NCBI GenBank assembly: GCA_050247195.1
Contig: JBFWUP010000007.1
Location: 56,836-120,835, forward strand
Direction: 5' to 3'
DNA length: 64,000 nucleotides
Source of the DNA: Candidatus Melainabacteria bacterium
GTDB taxonomy: Bacteria; Cyanobacteriota; Vampirovibrionia; Vampirovibrionales; Vampirovibrionaceae
Below are positions 1,190 to 45,266 of this stretch, one piece after another. Below the pieces are notes generated by a model, which saw only the letters and a list, made by a program, of their open reading frames with translations, was not told the DNA's origin and made no database searches. The first letter of the stretch is position 1. Each line of letters starts with the position of its first letter. Made by a program: the position numbers and the translations under genes.

Positions 1190-1954
1190 CTACTGATTCG
1201 AATAATCGTTGTAGCCGAAGAATTCACGTTGCGAGTCGCCGGAGTAAACCTTCCAGAACCGATCCAGGCCCAGATAGCCCAGACCTAGCAGCGGCAGCGT
1301 TACTGCCCAGCGGCCATTGGAAACAGACTTCGCGGCGAAGTCCAGTATTTTACCGACGCTTTTGCCGAGACCATCAGCGAGGTGTCGGCCGACACCCCAG
1401 TTCCGCAATCCCTGTCGTGCCGAATTCAGCGGCGCCCCGAAGGCACGACGACTCTCACGGGCGACAGCCCTGAAGGGTGCGTGAACGGCCCTGGCCCCAA
1501 AACCGCCGTACAGGCCTGCAAAACCCAATCCAATAAAGGGCAGGTTGGGTAAAAGAATTTCATTGATGAATCCCTCCGTATACGCTTTGATACGATAACC
1601 ACTGGCACGCAGTTTAAACGGTCCGTACAGCACGACGCGTTTCAACCGGACAGCAAGGCTGTCAAATCCGGGATGGCCTGAATAGAAACCAGCATTGAAT
1701 CTGAACTGGTCCATGGACAGTTCATTCTGGTAAGCCTGATAACGTTGTTCCCAGAGATCACGTGATCCACGAACAGAATCGCGCATCATCAGGTAAGCCA
1801 CGGCAATGGCGCCAAGTCCAAGCGCCTTCCGGCTGGCGGAGCCCGCCACACGGCTGACGCCGTTGCCGGCGACGCTGGTGGCGCGCGATGCGCCCTGACG
1901 GACGTTGCCGGGCAGGTGAATGTTATGCGGAATGTTGGGCGGCACGCTGCTCAT
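1190..1954 (-). CDS. hypothetical protein, Gly-rich C-terminal half
   Basis: 254-aa ORF; 4-nt ATGA overlap with the upstream gene suggests translational coupling. Confidence 0.5.
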   Translation of the reverse strand: MSSVPPNIPHNIHLPGNVRQGASRATSVAGNGVSRVAGSASRKALGLGAIAVAYLMMRDSVRGSRDLWEQRYQAYQNELSMDQFRFNAGFYSGHPGFDSLAVRLKRVVLYGPFKLRASGYRIKAYTEGFINEILLPNLPFIGLGFAGLYGGFGARAVHAPFRAVARESRRAFGAPLNSARQGLRNWGVGRHLADGLGKSVGKILDFAAKSVSNGRWAVTLPLLGLGYLGLDRFWKVYSGDSQREFFGYNDYSNQ

Positions 1955-12659: not shown

Positions 12660-13679
12660 TCAGCGAATCCCCGCCTGAAGAATATCGTGCATGTGAATCA
12701 CGCCCACAGGGCGCTCCTGCTCATCCGTAATCAGCAGGGCGGTGATTTTGTGGGTTTCCATCAGGCGCAGCGCCTTTTCTGCCAGATCCTCGGCCGAAAC
12801 CTGCTTGGGATTACGTGTCATACAGTCGGTCAGGGGAATATGGCGCGGGTCTCCCTGCTGCATCAGCGCACGGCGCACATCCCCGTCGGTGAGCATGCCG
12901 ACCATCCGGCCGTCGGTATTCACCACCAGGGCCAACCCGAGTTTTTTAGCGCTCATTTCCACCAGGGCGTCCATAAACGGGGTCCGTTCACTCACCACCG
13001 GGAGTTGTTCGCCGGTGGTCATCAGGTCCTGCACATGCAGCAACAGCCTTCTGCCCAGGGCACCCGCCGGGTGGTACTGCGCAAAGTTGTCCGAGGTGAA
13101 CCCTTTCCGGTCCAGCAGCACCACCGCCAGGGCATCGCCCAGGGCCAGGGTGGCAGTGGTGCTGGTGGTGGGCGCCAGATTCAGCGGGCAGGCCTCTTTG
13201 GGCACCTGAATGCTCAGGGAGATATCGCTTTGCCGGGCCAGAGTGGACTCCGGTTTGCCGGTCATGCTGATCAGCGGCACGCCGAGGCGCTTGATCAGCG
13301 GCAGAATATTGCTGATTTCAGGGGACTCGCCGCTGTAGGAGATGGCGATCACCACATCCTGCGGGCCCAGCAGGCCCAGATCCCCATGGCTGCCCTCGGC
13401 GGGATGCAGAAAATAGGCCGGGGTGCCGGTACTGGAGAGCGTTGCGGCGATTTTTCGGGCCACATGACCGCTTTTACCCATCCCGGTAATAATCACACGC
13501 CCCTGGCAGTCTTCAATACAGGCAACGGCCTGTAAAAAAGTCTCGCCGAGGTTGTTTCTGACCGCTTCGAGGCCTTCAATCTCCACATCCAGCACGGCGC
13601 GCGCCTGCGACAGCACACAATCCAGCTCGCCAGCCTGTGTGGCGGTTTCTGTGGGAGCCTTCAACGGAGTGGTGGTCAT
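12660..13679 (-). CDS. kdsD: arabinose-5-phosphate isomerase (SIS plus tandem CBS domains)
   Basis: …GRVIITGMGKSGHVARKIAATLSSTGTPA… SIS motif plus CBS pair; KdsD/KpsF/GutQ family. Confidence 0.85.
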   Translation of the reverse strand: MTTTPLKAPTETATQAGELDCVLSQARAVLDVEIEGLEAVRNNLGETFLQAVACIEDCQGRVIITGMGKSGHVARKIAATLSSTGTPAYFLHPAEGSHGDLGLLGPQDVVIAISYSGESPEISNILPLIKRLGVPLISMTGKPESTLARQSDISLSIQVPKEACPLNLAPTTSTTATLALGDALAVVLLDRKGFTSDNFAQYHPAGALGRRLLLHVQDLMTTGEQLPVVSERTPFMDALVEMSAKKLGLALVVNTDGRMVGMLTDGDVRRALMQQGDPRHIPLTDCMTRNPKQVSAEDLAEKALRLMETHKITALLITDEQERPVGVIHMHDILQAGIR

Positions 13680-13697
13680 GGGTGGCTTGTCGGGCCG

Positions 13698-14318
13698 TTA
13701 TTCATCCAGCGGGCTGCCGGACTCCTTTTTGGCCTTTTCCTTGTCTTTGTTCTTGGCTTCCAGCACCAGCAGGCTGTCAATATCCATCCAGGGGTCTTTC
13801 AGCGCGGCGCTGAAGACTGTGCCCTGAATTTTGACCTTATCGCCGCTTTCAATGTCCATCACATCGTTGCTTTTAGTGCGCGGGAAAAACAGCTTGAGCT
13901 CCGACAACGGAATCTCATGATCTTTGACGTCGGGGCGAAGAATCAGCACGCTAACGTAATCCTTGGGATCGCGCATGGCCTTTTTGTAGTTAAGGCCGGT
14001 GTCGGCAAAACGGTTAAAAACCGCTTCGAATTCAACATTCTTTTCCAGGTACTCATCCGGCTTGGTCACCAGATCGATCGGAGACACGGCGCTGTAGACC
14101 TTGTTTTCAACCGCTTCCTTCGCCTCAGCGGCGGCTTCCGCTTCGCCAGCCGGTTTGGCTTCGTCGGTCTTCACCGGTGCGGCAGGCGTCTCCGCCTGCG
14201 CCAGGTTGAAATGGCGGGCAAGATCGATGGCCTGCGCCTGAGGGAGGGTCTTCAGACCAAAGCTCACCAGGGTGGCGCTGACAATGAGGCCGGAAACGAG
14301 GGTTTTCACAGTACGCAT
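13698..14318 (-). CDS. secreted hypothetical protein
   Basis: Signal-peptide-like N-terminus MRTVKTLVSGLIVSATLVSFG; SD AGAGGA upstream of the ATG at 14318. Confidence 0.5.
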   Translation of the reverse strand: MRTVKTLVSGLIVSATLVSFGLKTLPQAQAIDLARHFNLAQAETPAAPVKTDEAKPAGEAEAAAEAKEAVENKVYSAVSPIDLVTKPDEYLEKNVEFEAVFNRFADTGLNYKKAMRDPKDYVSVLILRPDVKDHEIPLSELKLFFPRTKSNDVMDIESGDKVKIQGTVFSAALKDPWMDIDSLLVLEAKNKDKEKAKKESGSPLDE

Positions 14319-14431
14319 GGGAATTCCTCTGAAGCACAAACGTCAATTATTGCGGGTGTCACCATTGTACAACCAAAAGCCGCTGTGGTTGGTAATTAAA
14401 ACCAAAAGCAGACCCCAGAATGCCCCGGCAG

Positions 14432-15265
14432 TTAGTGGGGGGTCAGCACCTCGGCCTGGACGTTTTTGCGGGTGTTAAACAGCTCATTCAGGCTCTCGCT
14501 GAGCTGGGCCGAGGTGTTGGCGGCCATGAACTTGCCTTTGGTGGCCAGGGCCACGCATTTCAGCTGCCGTTGCGCGCCATAATCCGCCAACCCGTAAGCA
14601 ACAGTGTGAATCTTAATATTGGCGTTCGAGCGCATCATCTCCACGGCCAGGTCGCACGGGTCTTTGGCGCAGGTTTCTTCGCCGTCACTGACCAGAATGA
14701 CCGTGTGAGGCCCGCCCACATTGCGGAAATCCTCCTGCAGCGCCCTCGTCAGCGCGTAACTGATGGGCGTGGTGCCCGTGGGCTTAATGCCCACCAGTTG
14801 GCTGGCGATGGACATCCGGTTCCCGGTGCCAATGGGCACCAGGGTCTGCGTGGCCCGGCAGGGGTCCCCGTAACCCCGGCCCAGATGGCCGTAAACCCTC
14901 AGGCCAACAGGCACATTGGGCGGCACTTTTTTGAGCACATCCAGGATTACCTGCTTGGCCCCGTCCATCTTGGTCTGGTTGCCCAGGCGTATCCCCATTG
15001 ATTCCGAGGCGTCCAGGATGATCAGAATGCTTTCAGGTCCGGCGGCCTGTTGCGCGCCCAGAGCGTTCTGGCTCGCGCCAGCCTGATAGGCAGGCACGGT
15101 CGACGTGGCCGGAATCTGCTGATAAGCCTGTGGAATGCCACTCTGGCTTTGCGCAGGAAGTCCCTGCAGGAGTGTTTCCATACCAGAGCAAACACCCAGA
15201 AGCAGCACCAGCAAAAGGTTCAGACGGGCGCTGTGCACAGAAAACAGTGAGGACCAGTTCTTCAT
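14432..15265 (-). CDS. secreted von Willebrand factor type A (vWA) domain protein
   Basis: MIDAS-like DASESMG…VILVSDGEETC; N-terminal signal peptide. Confidence 0.7.
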   Translation of the reverse strand: MKNWSSLFSVHSARLNLLLVLLLGVCSGMETLLQGLPAQSQSGIPQAYQQIPATSTVPAYQAGASQNALGAQQAAGPESILIILDASESMGIRLGNQTKMDGAKQVILDVLKKVPPNVPVGLRVYGHLGRGYGDPCRATQTLVPIGTGNRMSIASQLVGIKPTGTTPISYALTRALQEDFRNVGGPHTVILVSDGEETCAKDPCDLAVEMMRSNANIKIHTVAYGLADYGAQRQLKCVALATKGKFMAANTSAQLSESLNELFNTRKNVQAEVLTPH

Positions 15266-15345
15266 ACCCTCTCAGGACGGATAAACCGACGGTCGGGTTC
15301 CATCCTAACATCCCCACATGCGAGGAAAAAAGGGCAAAAAAAAAT

Positions 15346-15382
15346 CTCTTGCAAAAAGGGGGTTGAGAGCGCAAGAGATTAC
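15346..15382 (-). terminator. rho-independent terminator candidate for the cyclase gene
   Basis: 9-bp stem ATCTCTTGC/GCAAGAGAT followed by a T9 run on the minus strand. Confidence 0.4.
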
Positions 15383-15507
15383 GGATAGAGAGAGAGGCAG
15401 TATATAAGAGAGCAAATTGATTGATTTGATACTGTCTTAAATTCCCCTCAAGCCACCCGTGTGCGCTAATTTCTGTTTTTACTTCAAATGTTTTACATTT
15501 CTTAAAT

Positions 15508-18123
15508 TTAGTGAGAATAATCATCTTCAGGGGCGGTTGAAACCGCCTCCTGCTGCTGCGGCAGCAGCACCGGCAGCTCCACACCGTATATCTGCACCGG
15601 CTCCCGGATACCTTTGACAGGCACCTGCCCGAGATCCCGGAAATGGACATTCTCGCGGTCCTGCGGCCGGGTCAGCGTGTCATCCAGCACCTGCCGGCGG
15701 GTTTCATCGCTGACCACAATGCGCGAGCCCACTTTGCGCGTCAGCCCTTCCAGGCGGGAGCCCAGATTGACGGCCGCCCCCATGACCGTAAAACTTTTAA
15801 TATCTTCCGAGCCGAAGTTCCCCACAACCATATCCCCACTGCTCAGTCCCACGCCGATTTTGAGCGGGCTCAGCCCACGCGCCGCCCAGCTTTCGTTCAG
15901 TTCAGCCAGGTGGGCATGCATTTCCATGGCGGCCTGGCAGGCCCTGCGTGCATGGTCCGGAAAACCGACCGGAGCGCCGAAGAAGGCCATAATCGCATCG
16001 CCCATGTATTTGTCGTAGGTTCCCTGGTGTTTCAGTATCACGCGGGTCATGGCGGTAAAGAACTCATTGAGCTGGACCACCATGAGTTCGGGATCCACCG
16101 TCTCAAACTGGGCTGTAAAGCCCTGCAGATCGGCAAACAGCACCGTGAGGTTCTTCTTGGCGCCGGCCAGGTTTTGCATGCTGTTGGCCGGGCTGGCCAG
16201 TATCTGGTCCATCACCTGTGGGGACACGTATTTGGAGAACACCCGCGTCAGCTGATGCTTCTCACGGTCGTGGACATAATAGCGGTAAACGCCCCCACCG
16301 GCCGTCGCCGCCAGTAACAGCACACTCGGCGTGACAATGGGAATCCACCAGCCCTGCGCGGTGAACATCCACACATTGTAAAACCAGAAGCCCGCCAGCA
16401 GCAGGCCGGCCAGCGCAATACCCAGGTAAAACCGCCGGATACGGAGAACACCGAGCATCACAAAGCCCATCAGCAGGGCCACCACGCCGTAGACAATCCA
16501 GGTGGCTGCCGGCCGCACGAAGTTATGGTCGTTCAGCGTCATATCCAGCACCGTGGCGAGAATCTCCGGTCCGTAGACATTCCCGCCCATCGGTGTGCGG
16601 TGCATGTCGGTCATGGTGTCGCCGTAAATCACAATCTTGTCCCGGAAATCAATCGTTCCCTTGTCCGGGCGCCGGTAAACACGGTTGAGTGAGGAATTCA
16701 CCGGGTCGGGGTTCAGCCCTTCATCGGCCAGCAGCACATCCACGGCGGAAACAATGCGGTACAGATGCCCGTACCCCAGCCAGTCCGTTCCGGCTTCCAG
16801 GTCCACGCGCCGGAGTTCCGTCTCCGTGGCTGGCAAACCGGCTTTTTTGAGGATGGAAGCCACCAGCGCTCTGGGATGCCGCCAGTTGATCATCACCTCG
16901 CCATGGGCGTCCAGCGGCAGTGTTTTGCCGTTCAGGCTCACCTTCAGAGCGTCCCCGGCGTCATTCAGGCGCAGTGTGGCCTGGCTGCGTTCGTTCACCA
17001 GGGGGCGGATACCCAGATAGGGGTAAAACACGTCGCCATACGTCCGGTAAAACGGCGTGACGGTCCTCAGCTGGGAATCCCCCTCGTACTTCACGCTGGT
17101 CATCCCCACGCCGCGGGCAGCCTGAAAGAAAGGCATATGGACCGCCAGCGTGCTGCAGTAGGTGATGGGATCCAGCAGGGGGCTGGCGCTGAGCCGTTCC
17201 TGATCCCAGGTGAGAGGTGTACCGTGTGTGGCCAGCCAGTCCAGAAATTCCGGCTGGGCGGCAAAAGTCTGGCGGTAGATGTGGGTCAGGCAGTCCTCGG
17301 CATACAGGGCATCCATCGGGTTGCCAATCGCCGGCCGGCTGGCGAACACCTCACCCGGCTTCGGCTGGCGCCTCAGCCACCCTCTCCTGCGAGGAGAGGG
17401 TTTAGACGGGTTCAGCAGTTCGTAGTCCCAGGGGCCTCGGAACACGGCTGTGGGCAGGCCCAGCATGGCCGGGATATCAGACACTCCTTGCAGCCCAAGT
17501 GCGGGATAGTAGGCAGGAAGGCCCCAGCGGGCGCTCAGGGTCGCCTGGGCGCGCACATAGGGAAGCAGGCGGGTCATGAACAGGGCGCGGTTCAGCGCCG
17601 CTTGGTATGCCTGTGGTGTGGGGTTCTGGCGGGCCTTGTACTCAGCCAGGTTCAGCTCCGCGGATTCGGCAATATACACGTTCCCCGCCCGGCGGATAGC
17701 GTCTTCCAGCACAGCGTCCTCCTCCGGGGTGGACTCCCCGTTGAAGCTGATGTCCAGAATGACGGCGCGGGGGTGCTGGGCGCTGATGTGGTTGAGAATC
17801 TGAGCGACACGGCCGCGGGGCATCATGCGGCGGGGCAGCTGGTACTCCGGATGGTTGACCCCGTAGTCGAAGCTCTTGCGGTCAATGCCGACGATGACGA
17901 TGTCATCTGAGGGGATGAAGCGCTCGGAGCGCAGGAGCAGGCGGACATCCAGCATGCTCAGCTCCAGCCGGTGAAGGATGCCCGGGGCGTTCAGGGCGTA
18001 AAAGCACGCCATTACCAGCACAAGAACCACCCCCCAGAGGCAGATCACCAGGGGGGGGACGGAAACCGCGTGATCCGTCGCAGAGGTTGGTGTGGGCTTG
18101 GGTTGCGCCTGCCGGGAGGCCAT
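15508..18123 (-). CDS. CHASE2-sensor, membrane-anchored class III adenylate/guanylate cyclase
   Basis: C-terminal cyclase catalytic motifs (…FADLQGFT…YMGDAIMAFFGAP…); long periplasmic CHASE2-like region followed by TM helices. Confidence 0.85.
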   Translation of the reverse strand: MASRQAQPKPTPTSATDHAVSVPPLVICLWGVVLVLVMACFYALNAPGILHRLELSMLDVRLLLRSERFIPSDDIVIVGIDRKSFDYGVNHPEYQLPRRMMPRGRVAQILNHISAQHPRAVILDISFNGESTPEEDAVLEDAIRRAGNVYIAESAELNLAEYKARQNPTPQAYQAALNRALFMTRLLPYVRAQATLSARWGLPAYYPALGLQGVSDIPAMLGLPTAVFRGPWDYELLNPSKPSPRRRGWLRRQPKPGEVFASRPAIGNPMDALYAEDCLTHIYRQTFAAQPEFLDWLATHGTPLTWDQERLSASPLLDPITYCSTLAVHMPFFQAARGVGMTSVKYEGDSQLRTVTPFYRTYGDVFYPYLGIRPLVNERSQATLRLNDAGDALKVSLNGKTLPLDAHGEVMINWRHPRALVASILKKAGLPATETELRRVDLEAGTDWLGYGHLYRIVSAVDVLLADEGLNPDPVNSSLNRVYRRPDKGTIDFRDKIVIYGDTMTDMHRTPMGGNVYGPEILATVLDMTLNDHNFVRPAATWIVYGVVALLMGFVMLGVLRIRRFYLGIALAGLLLAGFWFYNVWMFTAQGWWIPIVTPSVLLLAATAGGGVYRYYVHDREKHQLTRVFSKYVSPQVMDQILASPANSMQNLAGAKKNLTVLFADLQGFTAQFETVDPELMVVQLNEFFTAMTRVILKHQGTYDKYMGDAIMAFFGAPVGFPDHARRACQAAMEMHAHLAELNESWAARGLSPLKIGVGLSSGDMVVGNFGSEDIKSFTVMGAAVNLGSRLEGLTRKVGSRIVVSDETRRQVLDDTLTRPQDRENVHFRDLGQVPVKGIREPVQIYGVELPVLLPQQQEAVSTAPEDDYSH
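17380..17400. repeat. REP-like perfect palindrome CCCTCTCC-TGCGA-GGAGAGGG embedded in the cyclase CDS
   Basis: Same arm sequence as the intergenic palindromes at 41.9 kb and 59.28 kb; encodes a low-complexity RRRGWLRR linker. Confidence 0.4.
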
Positions 18124-18203
18124 CAGCGTCTTCCTGGCGGTTGTGCTCTCTCCTCAGTATGGCGCGGGCGGCGGGGTTCCGGATCCCCTGGCGATGGGAG
18201 TTA

Positions 18204-18665
18204 TTACCCGTCCGACTTGAGGAGCTTACTGACGCCGCTGGCCATGAGCGTGCCGAGGGCGAAACCGCCGAGTGGGATGTAACTGCCGGCAAAGCGCCCG
18301 AAAGGCTTGCCGAGGTGAAAGCCAGGCAGCAGTTTGCGACCCAGAGCAAACCCGGCGCCGGCCACCTCCCAGATGACGATGTTTTTGGCGCCCTGGCCGG
18401 CGGTGGCTTTGGTGGCGGCGATTAGTGGACTGTTACCCTCCAGTTCCGCCTGACGATAAGCGCTGACGCCCGCGCGGGCGGTATCCAGACCCATGAGGCT
18501 GAGGCCGAAGAGCTGACCGAGGCCCATGCCGCTGACTTTGCCGAGCCCTTTTGCGTTGGGATCCCAAATGGTTTTCAGCGGCTCCACATTCTGGCGCCAC
18601 ACGGTCTCTTTCAGGTACTCCCGCCAGCCATGGTTGAATATCGTTTCGCCATTTCGTAGTGTTTT
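18204..18665. repeat. left arm of a ~460-bp inverted repeat (3' half of paralog A)
   Basis: About 95% nucleotide identity to the reverse complement of 22866..23324. Confidence 0.75.
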
Positions 18666-19109
18666 GAGAATATTAGAAGGTTTGAGTTCCCTTGTTATAG
18701 TTGCAAAATTCCATCTGACAAGCCTTCCGTAGTGTGTTGGGTTTCTCAATTGAGAAAAGCTTAAATCGCGTTTGTGTCTTAGTCCGAAAAGCCCTGTGTA
18801 ACTGTATGGATGAAAATTCATAGCACGTGCTCTTAATGAGGGGGAATCCCCCAAGCGAGGGTTATGGACTTGATCGAAGGCGCTAATAAACTGATTTCTC
18901 TTATTTAGTTCAACGGCGCTCCGTCCTGTTGCCCCATCGATGAATTTTCCGGCTGCCACTCGGCTCGTCCAAATGGCGAAGCGTTTCTCGAAAACGTCCT
19001 TCAATGTTTTATTGGGGCTAAACGGCACAATCTCCCGCACTGGCGGAAGCTTTACAGACCTCTGATCTGCAAACGTATGCAGTTGAATTGGAGTGCCCTG
19101 AATGCTCAA
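18204..19109 (-). CDS. hypothetical protein, paralog A of an inverted pair (variable N-terminal half, conserved Gly-rich C-terminal half)
   Basis: 301 aa; TTG start supported by protein-level conservation with paralog B from residue 3; C-terminal ~150 aa about 97% identical to 22419..23324. Confidence 0.65.
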   Translation of the reverse strand: MSIQGTPIQLHTFADQRSVKLPPVREIVPFSPNKTLKDVFEKRFAIWTSRVAAGKFIDGATGRSAVELNKRNQFISAFDQVHNPRLGDSPSLRARAMNFHPYSYTGLFGLRHKRDLSFSQLRNPTHYGRLVRWNFATITRELKPSNILKTLRNGETIFNHGWREYLKETVWRQNVEPLKTIWDPNAKGLGKVSGMGLGQLFGLSLMGLDTARAGVSAYRQAELEGNSPLIAATKATAGQGAKNIVIWEVAGAGFALGRKLLPGFHLGKPFGRFAGSYIPLGGFALGTLMASGVSKLLKSDG

Positions 19110-19265
19110 TGTTTACCCTTTGGAATAGCCTCCCCTGTGTGCTTAAAAACAATATTTTTGTCGTAAAGGTGCTCATGTAACGTTTCTGTAACGACATTGC
19201 ACAATTACTCATTTGGTGACTATATTTGGGTTTGAGAATGACACCCCCAACCAGGATATGGAATC

Positions 19266-19547
19266 ATGCTATCCGCTCTACAGACAGGTCTATACAGCTT
19301 CTTGAGAGGAATCAGAGAAGGTGAAGACGGTGAGGAACCAAAGCCATCAACACCAAGGCCAAAATTGAGCTTCGCAGGTGAAGGTGATAACGGACTACCT
19401 CCGGTGCGTCCTGTTAAACCAGAACCCAATTACAAGTTGACATTTTCTGGCCCAGAGGGTGACGACGATGATGGTCCTGAACCCAAGCTGATGTTCGCCG
19501 GCAGCCTGCCCGCCGACGCCGGACGCCGGCTGAGCGTGCTGGGCTAA
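19266..19547 (+). CDS. small acidic repeat protein with three P-x-(K/Y)-KL-(S/T/M)-F-(A/S)-G repeats
   Basis: 93 aa; repeats PKLSFAGEGD / YKLTFSGPEGD / PKLMFAGSLPAD; SD AGGA 9 nt upstream. Confidence 0.55.
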   Translation: MLSALQTGLYSFLRGIREGEDGEEPKPSTPRPKLSFAGEGDNGLPPVRPVKPEPNYKLTFSGPEGDDDDGPEPKLMFAGSLPADAGRRLSVLG

Positions 19548-19565
19548 GCCCGCATGGCCAAAAAA

Positions 19566-19588
19566 GAAGCGCCCTTCGGGGCGCTTCC
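19566..19588. terminator. bidirectional rho-independent terminator
   Basis: GAAGCGCCC-TTCG-GGGCGCTTC perfect 9-bp stem; A5 upstream on the plus strand gives T5 after the minus-strand gene. Confidence 0.6.
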
Positions 19589-19592
19589 TAAA

Positions 19593-19871
19593 TTACTGGT
19601 TACCTGGTAGACCAGGAAGGTCCCCACCGCCGGAGGTGCCACCGGAATAGATGGGAACGCGTTGGCCGAGGATGAATTCGGAGCGGGTGTCAAAAAAGCT
19701 GGCCAGTCCGTTCATGCCGTTGGATTCAAACCGATCCGATAGGGCGCTGAAGCGATTGGCGCGGGTGGTCAGGCGGTTGGAAATAGCTGTATTCTGATCC
19801 GTGGTGTTGCTGGCGGCGCGCTGGGTATCCAGCGCCAGAATGAACGCGTTAAAGCGACTGAAATTGATCAT
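19593..19871 (-). CDS. small peptide gene, member 1 of the FG / C-terminal GLPGLPGNQ family
   Basis: 92 aa ending …GGGDLPGLPGNQ-stop; own SD and terminator. Confidence 0.65.
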   Translation of the reverse strand: MINFSRFNAFILALDTQRAASNTTDQNTAISNRLTTRANRFSALSDRFESNGMNGLASFFDTRSEFILGQRVPIYSGGTSGGGDLPGLPGNQ

Positions 19872-19967
19872 CTCAGGATGTCCTCTCTCTCTATTGTCGT
19901 GCTCTCTTCGATAGCGTATAGAGATATAAAAACAATCCGAAGGGATATCTTGATCGTTTATGACAAA

Positions 19968-19990
19968 AAATAAAGCGCCCTTTCGAGCGC
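19968..19990 (-). terminator. rho-independent terminator candidate
   Basis: AAAGCGC…GCGCTTT stem followed by a T-run on the minus strand, just past the stop of 20001..20171. Confidence 0.5.
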
Positions 19991-20000
19991 TTTATCTTAT

Positions 20001-20171
20001 TTATTGATTTCCTGGTAAACCAGGCAAGCCACCACCAGACCCGCCACCGGAGTTTCCACAATTACCATGTCCGGCGTATACGGGCCTACCACCATTCTGT
20101 TTGTTACGCGCCTGATTGGCCCGGTTCTGACCAAAACTTGCAGCCGAAGAATATCCAATGCTCATTGACAT
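20001..20171 (-). CDS. small peptide gene, member 2 of the FG / C-terminal GLPGLPGNQ family (not in the ORF track)
   Basis: Hand-translated 56 aa MSMSIGYSSAASFGQNRANQARNKQNGGRPVYAGHGNCGNSGGGSGGGLPGLPGNQ; SD GGAGAT 7 nt upstream; terminator downstream. Confidence 0.6.
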   Translation of the reverse strand: MSMSIGYSSAASFGQNRANQARNKQNGGRPVYAGHGNCGNSGGGSGGGLPGLPGNQ

Positions 20172-20282
20172 ACCAATATCTCCTCATTTCGTGTGTTCTA
20201 ACAACCAACCTTGATGGTTATATAAAAACAAGCAAATAAATTTCGGTGTTACTTCATTTACATAAATATAAAAAAACGGCAC

Positions 20283-20306
20283 CGATATACGATGCCGTTT
20301 AAACAA
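20283..20306 (-). terminator. rho-independent terminator candidate
   Basis: AACGGCA…TGCCGTT stem; T-run on the minus strand (A7 at 20272-20278 on the plus strand). Confidence 0.45.
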
Positions 20307-20318
20307 ACTGAACTTTGA

Positions 20319-20564
20319 CTATTGGCAACCAGGAAGACCTGGGAGGCAAGGTTGTGTTGTTGTCGTCACAACAGTCGTCGCGGGTGGCTTGCCATGGTGT
20401 CTTGGGGGTCTGTTTCCACGGCCAGGTCTGTTGCAGGCTTCAGCTACACCCGCTCCTAAAGTACCCACTGTCAACAATGCTCCCACCCCGGCTGCTGCCA
20501 TTTTAGAACGAGCACTGCGAAAAGCACCAAACTCAATGGAAGGGGTGTTCATCCCTACGTTCAT
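20319..20564 (-). CDS. small peptide gene, member 3 of the family (C-terminal LPGLPGCQ)
   Basis: 81 aa with a hydrophobic AAAGVGALLTVGTLGAGVAEA segment, a poly-Thr stretch, and …QPCLPGLPGCQ-stop; SD AGGAG 8 nt upstream. Confidence 0.6.
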   Translation of the reverse strand: MNVGMNTPSIEFGAFRSARSKMAAAGVGALLTVGTLGAGVAEACNRPGRGNRPPRHHGKPPATTVVTTTTQPCLPGLPGCQ

Positions 20565-20983
20565 AGGTCAACTCCTGTCTATATTTTCGTGTAACTACAA
20601 TATGGATCGTGAAGACCCACGCTGCTGCTTCTCTGAAGAACCACTTAAGTATGAAAACCACCACGGCAGCGCCATTGTATCTAACGGGAAAAGCCCGGGT
20701 CGGTCAAGGGTAAAACAGCCAACCGGTGCGTATTGAAAGGTAATGCACCCTATATTGCCATATGTCATCAGGGTTAATCATGCCCGATGCCGCTGAAACC
20801 CCCGTATTCTTTCGGTTTTGCCCGGTTGTGGCTTCATAATGCTTAACAAACCTATATATTCCGTGTGTCCCCGCCGAAAACCCATGGTGAACGGATATGG
20901 CCATGGTTAGGCTGGGCGCCCCGTGATAGGCGGGGGCCACCCTTCAGGAAGAAGCACTCAACGTCCAGAGAGGAAAGACGACG

Positions 20984-22030
20984 ATGCGCTGGAATGATTT
21001 GATGATGACGACCCGCATGGGCGCGCGCCCGCTGCTGAGACCCGGTGTACAGGCCGGGGTGACCGCCATGGAGTACGCCCTGCCCATTGGCCTGGTGGTG
21101 GTGCTCACCATTCCCGCGCTGGGCGCCCTGGGCGATATGACCAACGGGATGTTTGGCGGCATGCTGGGCATCAGCCAGCCTGCCCCGGCGCAGGAGATTG
21201 CCAGCGCCGAAGAAGTGATTGGCGCGCCGTCTCAGGCCGTTGACTCCGGCGATGTGTCCACCGAAACGCCCAGTGACCCGGCCGATGTGGGTGCAACCCC
21301 GGCCGACCCCACCCCCGCACCAGCCACCTCACCCCCGCAGTCGGTCCCCAGTAATGTGACGGTGTCCTTTGACCCGGCGACCGGGATGATTAAATACACC
21401 GGCTATGACGCCGCCGGCAACAAGATCGAAACCACCGACGCCAGCGGCACCGAACTCACGCTCTACATGGCGCAGATGTTGGAAAACCTAGCGGCCACAG
21501 CAACAAAAGACAACGGCCAACCGCTGCCGCCAGCGATTATTGGTTATATTAAAGACTTGGCTAATAAGGGCTATGATTTAAGCTCAAAAGAAAAAACTGT
21601 TGTTGATAATAATACGCTTGAAATTAGAAATACAATCGATTTAGATGCTCTCTATGGTCCAGCGGCCCAAAGAACTGCTGAACAAAAAGCTGAGATAAAT
21701 GCTCAATTTCAAGATATAACCGATTTCACTTATTCGCTTTATTACATGAAACAAAGCTATGACGCATTGATGAGTTATGTTGGGAATAAAAATGGTTATA
21801 CTGAATTAAAATCCCAGATAAGTTTGTATTCTGGAGTAATTAGCAGTGTAGGAATTCAGAATTTTCATATGCAGCAAACTGCTAACCAAACGACAGGGTC
21901 ATCCACTTTTTATAATTCATATGGTTTTGGAAGCACTGTTAACACCTCAGCCGTGAGCTTAGATATGTCCCCCATCGTCACCCACATTGAGTCCGGGAAT
22001 ATCGAACAAACGGCCAACCAGGTGCCGTAA
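20984..22030 (+). CDS. protein with a Flp/Fap-pilin-like class III signal-peptide N-terminus and a low-GC-encoded C-terminal domain
   Basis: N-terminus …RPGVQAG|VTAMEYALPIGLVVVLTIPALGALG matches the Flp prepilin G/xxxxEY plus hydrophobic-stretch motif; SD GAGAGGA; the 3' half (21.5-22.0 kb) is about 35% GC. Confidence 0.6.
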   Translation: MRWNDLMMTTRMGARPLLRPGVQAGVTAMEYALPIGLVVVLTIPALGALGDMTNGMFGGMLGISQPAPAQEIASAEEVIGAPSQAVDSGDVSTETPSDPADVGATPADPTPAPATSPPQSVPSNVTVSFDPATGMIKYTGYDAAGNKIETTDASGTELTLYMAQMLENLAATATKDNGQPLPPAIIGYIKDLANKGYDLSSKEKTVVDNNTLEIRNTIDLDALYGPAAQRTAEQKAEINAQFQDITDFTYSLYYMKQSYDALMSYVGNKNGYTELKSQISLYSGVISSVGIQNFHMQQTANQTTGSSTFYNSYGFGSTVNTSAVSLDMSPIVTHIESGNIEQTANQVP

Positions 22031-22051
22031 GGCCGGGTAAAGCAATACCAC

Positions 22052-22082
22052 AGAGCGCTCCGGTTCCGCCGGGGCGCTTTGG
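22052..22082 (+). terminator. terminator candidate after the Flp-like gene
   Basis: GCGCTCCGG-TTCCG-CCGGGGCGC imperfect stem followed by TTTGG. Confidence 0.4.
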
Positions 22083-22418
22083 TCGTTGGGGGGCAGCTCG
22101 CAGCGTCAGGCCAGGGCGTTCAGGCGTCGGCCTGCGTCGACGGGCGGGTTGGCGGTAAATTGGAGGCTGGGTTCAGGTCCATCTTTTCCTTCATCCCCCT
22201 CACCACCTGAAAAAAAAGGAGGTGCAAGCATTAAAGAGATATTATTGAGACTTGTCATAAGATCACCTTCAGTGTTGGGGGGGAACTGTCCTAAACCACA
22301 ATATAGAACTGACTTGACTTTTAGTCGCAGAGTGTTAATAACTCGTTACATGAACGGTGATAATGGTCTGCATGCGTTTTCATGCGGTTAATGGGGGTAC
22401 CATCTCAGGAGAGTTCAT

Positions 22419-23324
22419 TTGGGGGTTCAAGGAACAACCACCGTATTTACCTATGGTCAGCAAGGCAATCCTCATATGTTGCCGTCTGTCCGGGAGATTG
22501 TGCCGTTTAGTCCGAACAAAACTATCGAGGACGTTTTCGAGAAACGCTTCGCCATCTGGACAAGTCGAGTCGCCGCTGGGAAATTTGTGGATAATTTTAC
22601 AGGTAGGGGTTTGATTGATTTTGAAAAAAGGAATTCTTTCATAAAACAGTATGACAAGATTCACAATCCGACTTTGTCAAATTTCCCAGACCTTGCGGAA
22701 AAGGCTCTCGGCTTCAATCCTCACAGTTATTCTGGCCTTTTCAGTATTCGAAGCAAGCGAGATATGACCTTCTCTCACCTGAAAAGTCCGAAGTCCTATG
22801 TGAGAAAAGTACGGTGGAATTTTAAACCGCTTGGCCGACATTTATCTCCGAAGAATATTGTCAGTAACGTTCGATCTGGTCAGTCAATTTTTGCTTTCGG
22901 TTGGCGGGAGTACCTGAAAGAGACCGTGTGGCGCCAGAATGTGGAGCCACTGAAAACCATCTGGGATCCCAACGCAAAAGGGCTCGGCAAAGTCAGCGGC
23001 ATGGGCCTCGGTCAGCTCTTCGGCCTCAGCCTCATGGGTCTGGATACCGCCCGGGCGGGCGTCAGCGCTTATCGTCAGGCGGAGCTGGAAGGAAACAGTC
23101 CACTGGTGGCGGCCACCAAAGCCACCGCCAGCCAGGGCGCCAAAAACATCGTCATCTGGGAGGTCGCCGGCGCCGGATTTGCTCTGGGTCGCAAACTGCT
23201 GCCGGGCTTTCACCTCGGCAAGCCTTTCGGGCGCTTTGCAGGCAGTTACATCCCGCTTGGCGGCTTCGCCCTCGGCACACTCATGGCCAGCGGCGTCAGC
23301 AAGCTCCTCAAGCCGGACGACTGA
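22419..23324 (+). CDS. hypothetical protein, paralog B of the inverted pair
   Basis: 301 aa; TTG start with SD AGGAGA 5 nt upstream; C-terminal half near-identical to paralog A; the middle of the gene is AT-rich. Confidence 0.65.
   Translation: MGVQGTTTVFTYGQQGNPHMLPSVREIVPFSPNKTIEDVFEKRFAIWTSRVAAGKFVDNFTGRGLIDFEKRNSFIKQYDKIHNPTLSNFPDLAEKALGFNPHSYSGLFSIRSKRDMTFSHLKSPKSYVRKVRWNFKPLGRHLSPKNIVSNVRSGQSIFAFGWREYLKETVWRQNVEPLKTIWDPNAKGLGKVSGMGLGQLFGLSLMGLDTARAGVSAYRQAELEGNSPLVAATKATASQGAKNIVIWEVAGAGFALGRKLLPGFHLGKPFGRFAGSYIPLGGFALGTLMASGVSKLLKPDD
22866..23324. repeat. right arm of the ~460-bp inverted repeat (3' half of paralog B)
   Basis: Reverse complement is about 95% identical to 18204..18665. 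Confidence 0.75.
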
Positions 23325-37676: not shown

Positions 37677-38414
37677 CTAGTGTGAAGCCGCCATCTCATC
37701 GTGGAACAGGCGGATACTGGTCCCCGTCACGCCGGGCAGTTCATTGACGCGGTGAGAAATGGTGTGAATGCTCACCAGCTTGTTGTGTACGTCAATCAGG
37801 TAACTCAGCTGCGTGGGATGGTGGGCGTCTCCCTGCGTGGATTTGATGTCGACAATGTTGTCGCCGTATTCTTTTTCCAGCCAGTTTTTGGCTTCCGTCT
37901 GATGCTCCGTCGCCACATTGAGCTGGATACGCATTTTTGAAAACTTCTTAATGTGTTTTTCAAACACCGAGCGTTCAAACTTGCCGATAAAAAACAGCAC
38001 AAGAAACGCAAATACCGTGGCCATAATGGACAGGGCGTAATGGCCGATCCCCACCAGCATCCCCACACTGGCCATCATCCACAAGCTGGCCGCCGTGGTG
38101 AGACCCCGCACAGAGGCGCCATGACGCAGCACCGCCCCGCCACCGATAAAACCGATCCCGGTCACAATCTGCGCGGCAATCCGCGCCGGGTCGCGGGCGA
38201 TGTTAATCATATGCGTGGTGGCGTTCACGGCCATCAGCTCACTGCTCATATCCGAAATGGACACCAGCGTGAACACCGTGGCGCCGAGACACACCAGAAT
38301 ATGCGTGCGCAGACCAGCCGACTGCCGGTTGTATTCGCGTTCAAAACCCACAATGGAGCCCAGAATCAGCGACAGGGCGAGTCTCAGTGTGGCCTCAATC
38401 AGATGGGTTTCCAT
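37677..38414 (-). CDS. mgtC: MgtC/SapB family membrane protein
   Basis: N-terminus …LRLALSLILGSIVGFEREYNRQSAGLRTHILVCLGATVF… is the canonical MgtC signature. Confidence 0.8.
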   Translation of the reverse strand: METHLIEATLRLALSLILGSIVGFEREYNRQSAGLRTHILVCLGATVFTLVSISDMSSELMAVNATTHMINIARDPARIAAQIVTGIGFIGGGAVLRHGASVRGLTTAASLWMMASVGMLVGIGHYALSIMATVFAFLVLFFIGKFERSVFEKHIKKFSKMRIQLNVATEHQTEAKNWLEKEYGDNIVDIKSTQGDAHHPTQLSYLIDVHNKLVSIHTISHRVNELPGVTGTSIRLFHDEMAASH

Positions 38415-38452
38415 AGACTCATTGTATCAGTAGACGACACCGGGCAGTGCAA

Positions 38453-40147: not shown

Positions 40148-40607
40148 AACCTACTCTCATTACTCAAACCTTTGGCTTCGACAGGACAATGGAGATTCCT
40201 GCTGAACCCACTCCGCTATTCTAGGTTTTGTGTGGGAGACCGTCCATCATCCATCCGCCCGATTCATGGGCCTGCCCCTCGGCAGTTTGGAGGAGCCTGA
40301 GGCGCAGGAAGCCCCCGAAATGGCTTTTCCGGGCGGGCACATCGGCCGTTTCACCGCCTCCGGCGCCACCCGCAGTCTCCATTGAGCGACGGAGGACGTA
40401 AAAATTATTTTTTTTCGTATTCAGGCTTATTCCCCTGGAGGTAATGGGCCCGCCACAGGCCCTATGCAAACAGAGACAGGTCATACAGCCCCATTCAGAG
40501 GGCGTTCACACCTGTTGTGATCGCTACAGAAGCCGGTATGCCTTGATTCTTGCCGGGGGTCAGCTCAGGGAAATCCAGGCCAGGCAAGGAAATTTTGAAA
40601 TTTCTTC

Positions 40608-40635
40608 TTGATCCCTGGGAACATTCCGGTAAAAT
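40608..40635 (+). promoter_or_regulatory. sigma-70-like promoter candidate upstream of speH
   Basis: -35 TTGATC, 16-nt spacer, -10 TAAAAT; about 145-nt leader to the speH start. Confidence 0.35.
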
Positions 40636-40779
40636 TTAGATTCATTTTAACTCACAGGCCTCTCCCCCGGACTTCTCAAAAGAATGACCTCGTGAAGAGA
40701 CAGACTCGTAAAGATGACCAAAGGATAGCTTGAGTGATTCCGTTTTACCGACTCGCAACATAGAAAGGGAACACCCGAA

Positions 40780-41304
40780 TTGAACGAACACGCACCTGTT
40801 TTCAACTTGGGTCGACATCTACTCGCCGAATTTTACGAGTGTAACGCGAATATCCTCAACAGCGTGGAACGCATTGAAGACGCCATGAAGGAAGCCGCCA
40901 TCGCATGCGGCGCCACCATCGTGGAGTCCAAATTCCACCACTTCAGCCCGTACGGGGTGAGTGGCGTGGTGATTATCTCTGAGAGTCACCTGGCCATCCA
41001 CACCTGGCCGGAGTACGAGTACGCCGCCGTGGATCTCTTTACCTGCGGCGAGTCGTGCGATCCGCATATCGCCTACGAGCACCTGCAGAAGAGCCTGCGT
41101 TCCGGCAACGGCTTCTACTCGGAGCTGACGCGCGGTCTGCTGAACAACCGTACGGGTGAGCTGGTTCACACGCCCTTTGTGGTGCAGGCGCACCACGAGT
41201 CGGACCGTTCCGGCTCGGTGCACCCAATCCGCTTTAACGAGCAGCCCGGCCAGCCCCACGTGGTCAAGGCCCTGAACGTCAAAGGAGGGAAAGCCCATGT
41301 CTAG
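40780..41304 (+). CDS. speH: S-adenosylmethionine decarboxylase proenzyme, class 1b (pyruvoyl-dependent)
   Basis: [12 protein letters not shown]…[35 protein letters not shown]…[10 protein letters not shown] closely matches Thermotoga/Bacillus SpeH; E-S self-cleavage site present; TTG start with SD AAAGGGA. Confidence 0.85.
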
Positions 41305-41746
41305 CCTGATGACTGCCGACGCCAACGCGATGAACGAGTTTGGCCCGCACCTGATGCTGGACTGCAAACAGTGCGATCCCGACAAGATCAGCGACGTGGA
41401 GTATGTCTTTAACTTCCTCAACGACCTGCCGGAAACCATTGGGATGACGAAAATCACCCAACCCTATGTGTTTCCCTACAGCGGGCTGGTGCCGGAGGAC
41501 AAAGGCATTACCGGCGTGGTGATTATTGCCGAGTCGCACCTGACCTTCCACTCTTTTACGGACAAGGACTACTTCTTCTTTGACCTGTTCAGCTGCAAGC
41601 CCTTTGATGTGGACCTGGTTGAACAGTACGTGGTGAAGAAGTTCAACGTGAAGAGCGTGGAACGGCACCAGGCGATGCGCGGCCGGGATTTCCCCCGCAG
41701 CGTGATTGCCACCCCGCCGGCCAAAAAGCTCGCGGTGGTCCACTAG
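41297..41746 (+). CDS. divergent SpeH-family pyruvoyl enzyme paralog (candidate arginine/ornithine decarboxylase)
   Basis: …[35 protein letters not shown]… retains the ESH pyruvoyl-forming site but the substrate region has diverged; ATG overlaps the speH stop; strong SD AAAGGAGGG. Confidence 0.65.
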
Positions 41747-41812
41747 CCCCGTTCATTCCCCGTTTCCAGGCCCCCTTGCCCCACCCGGTGAGGGGGTTTT
41801 GGTTTAGGAACT

Positions 41813-45196: not shown

Positions 45197-45266
45197 TCAA
45201 GCCAAAACGCACCGGCTTTGCAAGTCCGCGCGACCCTCATCGCCAAAAGAGACCTCTCCCCCCAAC

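What the first reader, a model, noticed from the sequence alone, without database searches (positions are those of the whole stretch)
18204..23324. Two divergent paralogs with near-identical 3' halves form a ~460-bp inverted repeat around a 3.3-kb low-GC cassette
The genes at 18204..19109 (minus) and 22419..23324 (plus) encode 301-aa proteins that share about 55% identity over their N-terminal ~150 aa. From GWREYLKETVWRQNVEPLK to the C-terminus they are almost identical. At the nucleotide level 18204-18665 and the reverse complement of 22866-23324 are about 95% identical. The diverged middle parts of both genes are AT-rich. The conserved C-terminal half is glycine-rich and amphipathic (GMGLGQLFGLSLMGL…AGAGFALGRKLLPGFHLGKPFGRFAGSYIPLGGFALGTLMASG) and matches no domain I recognise. 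Uniform 3' ends with variable 5' ends suggest recent gene conversion or cassette-type recombination. The inverted arms could also mediate inversion of the intervening 3.3 kb, which carries the small-peptide genes and the Flp-like gene. The 1190..1954 product, with a loosely similar Gly-rich C-terminal region, may be a distant third family member.
Basis: seen in the sequence. Interest (0 to 1): 0.75.

Follow-up and report, generated by a model that had tools for sequence, protein, structure and literature searches.

The report
Gene-converted inverted paralog pair, Melainabacteria
Two head-to-head copies of an uncharacterised Melainabacteria gene have had their 3' halves made nearly identical by gene conversion, a known process seen here in an unknown protein family, and nothing indicates a programmed DNA switch.

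Summary
Arms 18209-18629 and 22899-23319 form a 421-nt inverted repeat, 94.8% identical, covering the last 140 codons of two 301-aa genes, A (18204..19109, minus) and B (22419..23324, plus).

Synonymous divergence is 0.20 inside the arms and saturated upstream. The break is sharp, at codon 162 (Fisher p = 1e-19). The 3' identity therefore comes from gene conversion, not only from protein constraint.

The inverted duplication is larger than the arms. It covers a two-gene module made of the family gene, a 157-160-nt divergent control region with conserved motifs, and a small acidic ORF (p4/p5).

Inversion across the arms is physically possible. It would change nothing, because both promoters and both variable 5' halves lie inside the segment. 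I found no recombinase and saw only one orientation.

The window comes from one 'Candidatus Melainabacteria' MAG. That MAG holds at least five family paralogs plus one 3' fragment. Elsewhere the family is rare, with 51 cluster representatives in 1.84 billion. It has no Pfam, NCBIfam or PDB relative, although the all-helical model is confident.

The 1190..1954 product is not a member. The interior carries orphan genes, including three small genes that all end in LPGLPG(N/C)Q.

The parts
18204..19109 (-). Gene A, 301 aa with a TTG start. Member of an uncharacterised Melainabacteria helical protein family. NCBI called only its last 132 aa (AB7P76_09965).
   Evidence: ORF. Family HMM E = 6e-72. 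AF2 model has pLDDT 80.6 and pTM 0.72. In the N-terminal block dN is 0.08 against dS 1.19, which shows the full-length ORF is under purifying selection. NCBI annotation.
22419..23324 (+). Gene B, 301 aa with a TTG start behind an AGGAG Shine-Dalgarno sequence. Paralog of A (AB7P76_09950).
18209..18629 (.). Left arm of the inverted repeat. It is the gene-conversion tract, covering codons 162-300 of A.
   Evidence: 421 nt, 94.8% identical to the right arm, 22 differences (15 transitions), longest identical run 92 nt. dS 0.20 and dN 0.011.
22899..23319 (.). Right arm of the inverted repeat. It is the gene-conversion tract, covering codons 162-300 of B.
18936..19046 (.). Older, weaker inverted match (82%) with 22482-22592. 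It encodes the N-terminal motif VREIVPFSPNKT..FEKRFAIWTSRVAAGKF.
   Evidence: dN 0.08 and dS 1.19. 89% amino-acid identity.
22482..22592 (.). Partner of 18936-19046.
19110..19265 (.). Divergent control region between A and p4. It shares motifs AAACCnnAATATAG (-117) and CGTTACATGA (-72) with the region between B and p5.
22259..22418 (.). Divergent control region between B and p5, with the same two motifs at -119 and -74.
19266..19547 (+). p4, 93 aa. Acidic and Pro/Gly-rich, with three (K/Y)LxF(A/S)G repeats. Its C-terminal 25-30 aa are homologous to p5.
   Evidence: DNA match 19470-19545 / 22108-22183 at 72%. pS 0.42 against pN 0.23. Called as a gene in the Logan assembly.
22106..22258 (-). p5, 50 aa. 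Shorter homolog of p4, with an AAGGTGA Shine-Dalgarno sequence.
19593..19871 (-). p1, 92 aa. Ends in SGGTSGGGD-LPGLPGNQ and has its own terminator at 19554-19586.
   Evidence: (D3). NCBI AB7P76_09960.
20001..20171 (-). p2, 56 aa. Cationic and Gly/Asn-rich. Ends in GGGSGGG-LPGLPGNQ, with a terminator at 19970-19995.
20319..20564 (-). p3, 81 aa. Signal-peptide-like N-terminus, Pro/Thr-rich, three Cys. Ends in LPGLPGCQ, with a terminator at 20274-20300.
20984..22030 (+). Gene C, 348 aa, an orphan. It has a Flp-type prepilin-like N-terminus (AG/VTAMEYAL). GC3 is 0.8 at the N-terminus and 0.15-0.30 in the C-terminal domain.
   Evidence: Pfam Flp_Fap E = 0.0014, below the cut-off. NCBI name. No homolog among 5.8 billion proteins. 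GC3.

Best explanation
The locus is an old head-to-head (inverted) duplication of a two-gene module. Each module holds a family gene, a divergent control region and a small acidic ORF. The pair brackets about 2.5 kb of orphan genes.

Ordinary homologous recombination between the two copies has repeatedly copied the 3' half of one family gene onto the other. This is non-reciprocal gene conversion. As a result the last 140 codons evolve in concert while the first 160 codons keep diverging.

The tract has two limits:
- At the outer end it stops at the stop codon, where homology ends.
- At the inner end it stops at codon 162, where the copies are only about 50% identical. That is too diverged for heteroduplex formation, or conversions reaching further are selected against.

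A crossover in the arms could invert the 4.3-kb interior. It would be phenotypically silent, so this is not a switch.

The conserved C-terminal module consists of Gly/Ala-rich, weakly hydrophobic helices with invariant W247 and nearly invariant E248, G257, P262, G282 and G286. I infer that it is a shared membrane-association or oligomerisation unit, and that the variable N-terminal half gives each paralog its specificity.

Shown: the repeat, the dS contrast, the breakpoint, the module homology and the orphan family.

Inferred: the direction and number of conversion events, and the protein's role.
For: - Repeat: 421 nt at 94.8%.
- Codon analysis of A against B: the C-terminal 140 codons have dS 0.20 and dN 0.011. 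Codons 21-57 have dS 1.19 and dN 0.08. Codons 58-160 have saturated dS and dN 0.51.
- Third-position differences are 103/161 upstream and 19/140 downstream. Fisher p = 1e-19, the max-chi-square breakpoint is at codon 162, and 0 of 1000 permutations reach it.
- In the middle region B is as close to the unlinked paralog P0001 (50%) as to A (47%). In the C-terminal region A and B are 97% identical but only 56-57% identical to P0001. The copies are therefore old and only the 3' part is young.
- Identity varies within the arm: 3 differences in the inner 156 nt and 19 in the outer 265 nt. Sliding dS ranges from 0.05 to 0.37. This fits more than one event.
- Module-wide homology: the p4/p5 C-termini and conserved upstream motifs at matching positions.
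[quoted passage not shown] That matches the tract ending at the stop codons.
- Partial 3' duplication recurs in the same MAG: a start-less 74-aa C-terminal fragment lies 290 nt downstream of paralog P0014.
- Family and structure.
Against: - No outgroup genome carries the pair, so the non-reciprocal transfer is inferred from one genome rather than seen.
- The same pattern would arise from a younger duplication whose 5' parts were later replaced by foreign alleles.
- dS 0.20 is not very recent.
- The genome is a short-read MAG. Orientation across the arms rests on one assembly.
Confidence: 0.68

Rival explanations
1. Young inverted duplication plus replacement of the 5' parts. The whole module was duplicated about dS 0.2 ago. 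The 5' 160 codons, the control region and p4/p5 of one or both copies were later overwritten by recombination with diverged alleles from other strains or paralogs.
For: - The middle region of B is no closer to A than to the unlinked P0001.
- The middle regions use low-GC codons (AGA, TTA, ATA; GC3 0.37-0.40) that are foreign to this genome, which has GC3 0.75-0.8.
- Family members in 43-44% GC relatives have GC3 0.34-0.38.
Against: - It needs several independent replacements to explain the graded divergences: arms 0.05-0.37, p4/p5 pS 0.42, N-terminal block dS 1.19, middle saturated.
- The same GC3 trough occurs in the unlinked paralogs P0001 and P0014 and in P0062, a 266-aa family member in the same 90%-identity cluster as P0015, from another MAG (GCA_964387265.1). 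The trough is therefore a family trait, not a mark of recent import.
- A conversion template lies only 4 kb away.
Confidence: 0.17
2. Programmed invertible element or cassette switch. The arms would serve as recombination sites that flip the 4.3-kb interior to change which genes are expressed, as in Campylobacter fetus sap, shufflons or hin/fim switches.
For: - Inverted arms with identical runs of up to 92 nt could support RecA-type crossover.
- Short-read de Bruijn contigs break exactly at the arms, so the orientation is not independently fixed by those assemblies.
Against: - Geometry argues against it. Both genes point outward, and their promoters and variable 5' halves are inside the segment. 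Inversion only swaps nearly identical 3' ends, which differ at 4 amino acids.
- No recombinase, invertase or transposase domain was found in the 40 other window ORFs scanned against Pfam.
- The arms are 421-nt coding sequence with mostly synonymous differences, not short recombinase sites.
- Only one orientation is on record.
- No other family locus is paired in inverted orientation.
Confidence: 0.06
3. No recombination. An old duplication in which the C-terminal half is simply under much stronger purifying selection than the N-terminal half.
For: The C-terminal half is the most conserved part of the family, with invariant W247 and nearly invariant E248, G257, P262, G282 and G286 across 40 members.
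Against: - Protein constraint cannot hold synonymous sites. dS is 0.20 against more than 1, and third-position differences are 13.6% against 64%.
- The strongly constrained N-terminal block (dN 0.08) still has dS 1.19.
Confidence: 0.04
4. Assembly artefact. The inverted repeat or the join between interior and flanks is a mis-assembly of a metagenome bin.
For: The source is a short-read MAG, and repeats are classic sites of mis-joins.
Against: - An independent Logan assembly reproduces window 18597-22931 and 13275-18318 base for base. The flank contig carries A-type bases at 7 of 7 diagnostic arm positions.
- The two arms differ at 22 sites in a codon-consistent way, with 18 synonymous differences.
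- Both ORFs are intact.
Confidence: 0.03

Closest known systems
tufA/tufB concerted evolution in Salmonella and E. coli: RecA-dependent gene conversion between inverted duplicate genes (PMC5485169; earlier work recalled from memory)
   Same: - Two paralogs lie in inverted orientation on one chromosome.
- Non-reciprocal homologous recombination keeps the sequences alike.
- Tracts are bounded by the limits of homology.
- Crossovers between the copies can invert the interval.
   Different: - The tuf genes are homogenised over their full length, lie far apart and are essential.
- Here only the 3' 46% of each gene is homogenised, with a sharp internal breakpoint. The copies are 4.3 kb apart, and the family is of unknown function.
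Campylobacter fetus sap locus: RecA-dependent inversion between oppositely oriented S-layer gene homologs (recalled from memory; no paper found)
   Same: - Oppositely oriented paralogs share a conserved block and have variable remainders.
- They flank an invertible interval.
   Different: - In sap the conserved block is at the 5' ends, and the single promoter sits in the invertible segment, so inversion changes which gene is expressed.
- Here the conserved block is at the 3' ends facing outward, and each gene keeps its own promoter, so inversion changes nothing.
Neisseria pilE/pilS silent-cassette antigenic variation (recalled from memory)
   Same: - A multicopy family shows segmental, non-reciprocal sequence transfer.
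- One start-less partial 3' copy exists in the same MAG (L008 9429-9650).
   Different: - In pilE/pilS the variable part is transferred from many promoterless copies into one expression site.
- Here the conserved part is what is shared, both partners are complete genes with their own promoters, and no array of silent copies was seen.
Class IIb microcins: small Gly-rich peptides sharing a conserved C-terminal tail (recalled from memory). Compared with p1-p3 only.
   Same: Several small, Gly-rich, cationic peptide genes in one locus have different bodies and a shared C-terminal tail.
   Different: - p1-p3 have no double-glycine leader.
- No export or modification genes lie nearby.
- The tail LPGLPG(N/C)Q is unlike the Ser-rich microcin tail.
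- No sequence relatives were found.

Membership tests
Concerted evolution by intrachromosomal gene conversion | Two homologous sequences lie on the same replicon | tested here: met
   A and B lie 4.3 kb apart on one contig.
Concerted evolution by intrachromosomal gene conversion | A tract with much lower synonymous divergence than the adjoining homologous sequence | tested here: met
   dS is 0.20 in the tract, 1.19 in the N-terminal block and saturated in the middle. Third-position differences are 19/140 against 103/161, p = 1e-19.
Concerted evolution by intrachromosomal gene conversion | Abrupt breakpoint or phylogenetic incongruence between segments | tested here: met
   The max-chi-square breakpoint is at codon 162, reached by 0 of 1000 permutations. 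The middle region shows B-P0001 at 50% against A-B at 47%; the C-terminal region shows A-B at 97% against 56-57%.
Concerted evolution by intrachromosomal gene conversion | Within-genome clustering of paralogs relative to orthologs in sister genomes | not testable with these tools
   No other genome or metagenome contig with the pair was found.
Programmed invertible DNA switch (invertase type or sap type) | Inverted repeats bracket the segment | tested here: met
Programmed invertible DNA switch (invertase type or sap type) | A site-specific recombinase is encoded in or next to the element | tested here: not met
   No recombinase, invertase or transposase Pfam domain appears in the locus genes or in the 40 other window ORFs tested.
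Programmed invertible DNA switch (invertase type or sap type) | Inversion changes the promoter-gene or gene-segment linkage | tested here: not met
   The promoters and variable 5' halves of both genes are inside the segment. The arms differ at only 4 amino-acid positions.
Programmed invertible DNA switch (invertase type or sap type) | Both orientations are present in the population | not testable with these tools
   Logan contigs break inside the arms.
Flp/Fap type IVb pilin (for gene C, 20984..22030) | Match to Pfam PF04964 at or above its gathering score | tested here: not met
   18.8 bits against a cut-off of 32.2, E = 0.0014.
Flp/Fap type IVb pilin (for gene C, 20984..22030) | Prepilin processing motif G/xxxxEY followed by a hydrophobic helix | tested here: met
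   The translation contains QAG|VTAMEYALPIGLVVVLTIPALGAL.
Flp/Fap type IVb pilin (for gene C, 20984..22030) | Short mature pilin (about 50-80 aa) with tad/cpa assembly genes nearby | tested here: not met
   The protein is 348 aa. No tad/cpa domains appear in the window ORFs scanned.
Glycine-zipper membrane proteins or pore-forming toxins (for A and B) | Sequence or fold match to a known Gly-zipper, colicin-type or other pore-forming family | tested here: not met
Glycine-zipper membrane proteins or pore-forming toxins (for A and B) | Hydrophobic Gly/Ala-rich helices long enough to span a membrane | tested here: inconclusive
   There are three segments of about 15 residues with a 15-residue-window Kyte-Doolittle score of 1.0-1.7. 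They carry a conserved E248 and, in most members, an Arg.

The most novel reading that the evidence does not exclude
The conserved 3' modules may serve as recombination handles of a family-wide shuffling system. In this genome three paralog sets in one locus (A/B, p4/p5, p1/p2/p3) and a start-less 3' fragment next to P0014 all share 3' ends and differ in their 5' parts. If homologous exchange through these shared 3' ends, with or without inversion, reassorts variable N-terminal 'specificity' halves among five or more paralogs, this would be a recombinase-independent diversification mechanism. It would act on a new class of membrane-acting or secreted proteins in uncultured Melainabacteria. The LPGLPG(N/C)Q peptides and the long Flp-type protein could be co-evolving secreted partners. 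GC-biased gene conversion would then explain why GC3 in the converted tract (0.72-0.80) exceeds GC3 in the same domain of the unpaired paralogs (0.55-0.68).
Probability: 0.1. Interest if true: 0.7.

Novelty: new member of a known kind. Interest (0 to 1): 0.4.

Why it matters
The process itself, partial gene conversion between inverted paralogs, is textbook. This case is unusually clean. One codon-sharp breakpoint separates a homogenised functional module from freely diverging halves. It could serve as a natural example of how conversion tracts are limited by divergence.

The wider value lies in the content of the locus:
- An orphan, multi-copy, confidently folded helical family that looks confined to Melainabacteria-like genomes and has no known fold relative.
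- A trio of small translated genes with a conserved C-terminal octapeptide.

Both are leads into the almost unstudied cell biology of non-photosynthetic relatives of cyanobacteria. Neither answers a long-standing question by itself.

Tried and rejected
- Pfam, NCBIfam, PHROGs and PADLOC on A, B, C and p1-p5: nothing except a sub-threshold Flp_Fap hit for C.
- Pfam and NCBIfam on all 40 family members: only scattered chance hits.
- Word-indexed homolog searches found only a same-MAG paralog for A and nothing for C. The profile version found three proteins.
- Two scans of GTDB genome contigs, one with the family profile and one with the CHASE2 cyclase flank, found no relative. No sister genome was available to polarise the changes or test synteny.
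- A pattern scan for LPGLPGNQ-stop gave 7 hits that look like chance. They fall in non-coding frames or in an unrelated 189-aa ORF ending LPGFPGNQ, which I think is a chorismate lyase but did not test.
- Rfam: only sub-threshold hits on terminator hairpins. No tRNA gene is present as an integration mark.
- Exact look-ups of B failed to retrieve its contigs.
- I tested for a shared upstream motif among all five paralogs. Only A and B share one.
- I considered that small ORFs neighbouring the family gene, mostly convergent downstream, seen at several other family loci are a conserved partner such as a chaperone or immunity protein. They are only 15-19% identical, have no Pfam hit, and have no counterpart next to A or B.
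- I considered a FlgM-like N-terminal export signal (MSxDRxxP in several members) and the proximity of flagellar genes in 3 loci. These are suggestive only and were not tested.

Full report
**Source.** Exact-sequence look-ups place the window on a 122.5-kb contig of one metagenome-assembled genome, 'Candidatus Melainabacteria bacterium', locus tags AB7P76_. Paralog look-ups give the assembly as GCA_050182425.1. B is AB7P76_09950. A was annotated only as a 132-aa C-terminal fragment (09965). The 348-aa gene is named 'Flp family type IVb pilin', and p1 is 09960.

**Observation.**
- The repeat finder reports arms 18209-18629 and 22899-23319: 421 nt, 95% complementary, 4269 nt apart. blastn gives 94.77%.
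- There are 22 differences, 15 of them transitions. The longest identical run is 92 nt.
- Identity collapses to chance immediately inside 18630/22898 and just beyond the stop codons.
- The proteins (301 aa each) are 74% identical overall. By segment the figures are 97% for residues 161-301, 47% for 58-160 and 89% for the N-terminal motif block 21-57.
- An independent Logan assembly of run SRR27751815 reproduces window 18597-22931 and 13275-18318 without a single mismatch. The structure is not peculiar to one assembler.
- Those contigs end inside the arms, as expected for a de Bruijn graph meeting an inverted repeat. They cannot fix the orientation of the interior.

**What made the 3' halves alike.**
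- Codon-by-codon comparison (Nei-Gojobori) gives dS 0.20 and dN 0.011 for the last 140 codons. It gives dS 1.19 and dN 0.08 for codons 21-57. For codons 58-160 dS is saturated and dN is 0.51.
- Third-position differences are 103/161 upstream and 19/140 downstream (Fisher p = 1e-19). A max-chi-square scan puts the breakpoint at codon 162, and 0 of 1000 permutations reach the observed value.
- Protein-level constraint cannot protect synonymous sites. The constrained N-terminal block shows this, because it is conserved in protein yet nearly saturated at silent sites. The 3' halves therefore share a much more recent ancestor than the rest.
- In the middle region B is as similar to the unlinked paralog P0001 (50%) as to A (47%). 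In the C-terminal region A and B are 97% identical and only 56-57% identical to P0001. The two copies are old, and only their 3' parts are young.
- Within the arm, the inner 156 nt has 3 differences and the outer 265 nt has 19. Sliding dS runs from 0.05 to 0.37. This suggests more than one event.
- This is the signature of intrachromosomal gene conversion. In the Salmonella tuf model, conversion runs until 'the bounds of the gene', meaning the end of homology (PMC5485169). That matches the outer end of the tract at the stop codons.

**The duplicated unit is larger than the arms.**
- Just inside each family gene lies a divergently transcribed small ORF: p4 at 19266..19547 (plus) and p5 at 22106..22258 (minus).
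- Their C-terminal 25-30 residues are homologous: DGPEPxLxF....P.DAGRRLxxL. The DNA match is 72%, with pS 0.42 against pN 0.23.
- The 157-160-nt control regions between the family gene and the small ORF carry the same two motifs at the same distances: AAACCnnAATATAG at -117/-119 and CGTTACATGA at -72/-74. These motifs are absent upstream of the other paralogs.
- The locus is therefore an inverted duplication of a two-gene module, with divergence graded by segment.

**Would inversion matter?** Both family genes point outward. Their promoters, start codons and variable halves lie inside the interval bounded by the arms. A crossover within the arms would invert 4.3 kb and re-join each 5' half to a 3' end that differs at no more than 4 residues. 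No Pfam recombinase, invertase or transposase domain was found in the locus genes or in the 40 other window ORFs scanned. There is also no tRNA gene. Inversion is physically possible, given identical runs of 92 and 47 nt. It has no predicted consequence, and only one orientation is on record.

**The protein family.**
- A word-indexed search of 5.8 billion proteins found a single relative of A, and it is in the same MAG.
- A full HMMER scan of 1.84 billion cluster representatives found 51 proteins at E <= 1e-3 and 16 at E <= 1e-10, with lengths of 132-424 aa.
- Four of those proteins are encoded by the same MAG: the 132-aa annotated fragment of A, plus P0001 (contig 4), P0013 (contig 8) and P0014 (contig 3). 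With A and B, this genome has at least five full-length paralogs.
- It also has a start-less 74-aa C-terminal fragment 290 nt downstream of P0014. The fragment scores E = 9e-22 against the family HMM and is 76% identical in DNA to the 3' end of P0014.
- The other members come from metagenome contigs of flagellated, 43-56% GC organisms.
- Contexts are not conserved overall. The genes are monocistronic and scattered among housekeeping genes. Three loci share the order NUDIX / family gene / small convergent ORF / UDP-GlcNAc 2-epimerase, and one of these has a tandem pair. No inverted pair occurs elsewhere.
- Conserved features across 40 members: a start of the form MxxxG, W..W..R, SY..L..L, Y...V..NF and YLKETVW..N..PIK. 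These are followed by Gly/Ala-rich helices with invariant W247 and nearly invariant E248, G257, P262, G282 and G286.
- AlphaFold2 with this alignment gives an all-helical model with mean pLDDT 80.6 and pTM 0.72. pLDDT exceeds 90 over much of the C-terminal half.
- The three Gly-rich segments are only weakly hydrophobic. I infer with low confidence a membrane-association or oligomerisation module shared by all paralogs, joined to a paralog-specific N-terminal half.
- The 1190..1954 product is not a member.

**The interior.**
- Three small minus-strand genes (p1, p2, p3) each have a Shine-Dalgarno sequence, an ATG start and their own hairpin-plus-T-run terminator.
- All three end in LPGLPG(N/C)Q. 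The eight codons differ at many synonymous positions between the three genes and at only one amino acid. The tail is therefore conserved as a peptide, and the ORFs are translated.
- p2 and p3 are cationic and Gly/Pro-rich. p3 has a signal-peptide-like N-terminus.
- Gene C has a Flp-type processing motif, but it is 348 aa long, scores below the Pfam cut-off and has no homolog at all.
- A pattern scan of JGI metagenomes for the octapeptide tail found only chance-like matches.

**Composition.**
- Housekeeping genes here have GC3 of 0.75-0.8.
- The converted tract has 0.72-0.80. The same domain in the unpaired paralogs P0001 and P0014 has 0.55-0.68.
- The middle part of A, B, P0001, P0014 and P0062 has 0.23-0.47. 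P0062 is a 266-aa family member from another MAG, GCA_964387265.1, and belongs to the same 90%-identity cluster as P0015.
- The 'low-GC cassette' is therefore a mosaic, and the trough inside the family genes is a family trait. Similar intragenic troughs occur in gene C and in 30642..33380.
- GC-biased conversion could explain the excess GC3 of the tract. This is an inference and was not tested.

**Verdict.** The finding is a real and well-delimited partial gene-conversion tract between inverted, anciently duplicated two-gene modules. It is a known evolutionary process occurring in an unknown protein family. The switch or cassette reading is not supported.

Noticed in passing
window 19593-19871, 20001-20171, 20319-20564 (all minus strand): Three monocistronic small genes (92, 56 and 81 aa) with unrelated bodies all end in LPGLPG(N/C)Q. 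The tail is kept through many synonymous codon changes, so it is selected as a peptide. Each gene has its own terminator. p2 and p3 are cationic and Gly/Pro-rich, and p3 looks secreted. No relatives were found anywhere.
   Followed up: partly
L008 9429-9650 (same MAG, contig JBFXCH010000003.1), 290 nt downstream of paralog P0014: A start-less 74-aa fragment of the family's C-terminal module (HMM E = 9e-22), 76% identical in DNA to the 3' end of P0014. Partial 3' duplications of this family recur in the genome.
   Followed up: partly
window 18650-18950 and 22590-22890; 21500-22000; 32500-33500; also L001 and L008: Sharp intragenic troughs of third-codon-position GC (0.15-0.45, against 0.75-0.8 in housekeeping genes). 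They occur in the middle of the family genes (also in the unlinked paralogs P0001 and P0014 and in family member P0062 from another MAG), in the C-terminal 150 codons of the Flp-like gene, and in the C-terminal third of 30642..33380. The cause is unexplained.
   Followed up: partly
window 19266-19547 (+) and 22106-22258 (-): The small acidic Pro/Gly-rich ORFs p4 and p5 contain repeated (K/Y)LxF(A/S)G-x-E/P-x-D units and share a DAGRRLxxL C-terminus. Each is divergently paired with a family gene through a control region holding two conserved motifs.
   Followed up: partly
L006 4345-4812, L010 6066-6641 and 7914-8372, L011 3482-3817 (convergent downstream); L005 7283-7762 (upstream, divergent): In several other family loci a small ORF of 111-191 aa lies next to the family gene, in four cases convergent downstream of it. 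Those of L005, L006 and L010 have beta-strand-like motifs, and L006's is visibly acidic. Three of these loci (L006, L010, L011) share the order NUDIX / family gene / small ORF / epimerase. The four small ORFs aligned (L006, both L010, L005) are only 15-19% identical, so a partner role such as chaperone or immunity is unproven.
   Followed up: partly
L005 1-3004, L010 10336-13034, L007 16376-16801: Three of the seven other family loci have flagellar genes (FlgA/F/G, FlgB/C-FliE-FliF, FliR) within 8 kb. Several family members start with MSxDRxxP, which resembles the FlgM N-terminus as I recall it. This could be coincidence.
   Followed up: no
window 30642-46345: A run of large ORFs (912, 1015, 419, 564, 316, 260 and 347 aa) has no Pfam domain at E <= 1e-4. 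This MAG is rich in orphan genes.
   Followed up: no
window 18204-19109: NCBI's annotation calls only the last 132 codons of gene A. The full 301-codon ORF with a TTG start is intact, matches the family N-terminus (MxxxG), and shows purifying selection in its N-terminal block. This is probably an under-call caused by the TTG start and the low-GC 5' half.
   Followed up: yes
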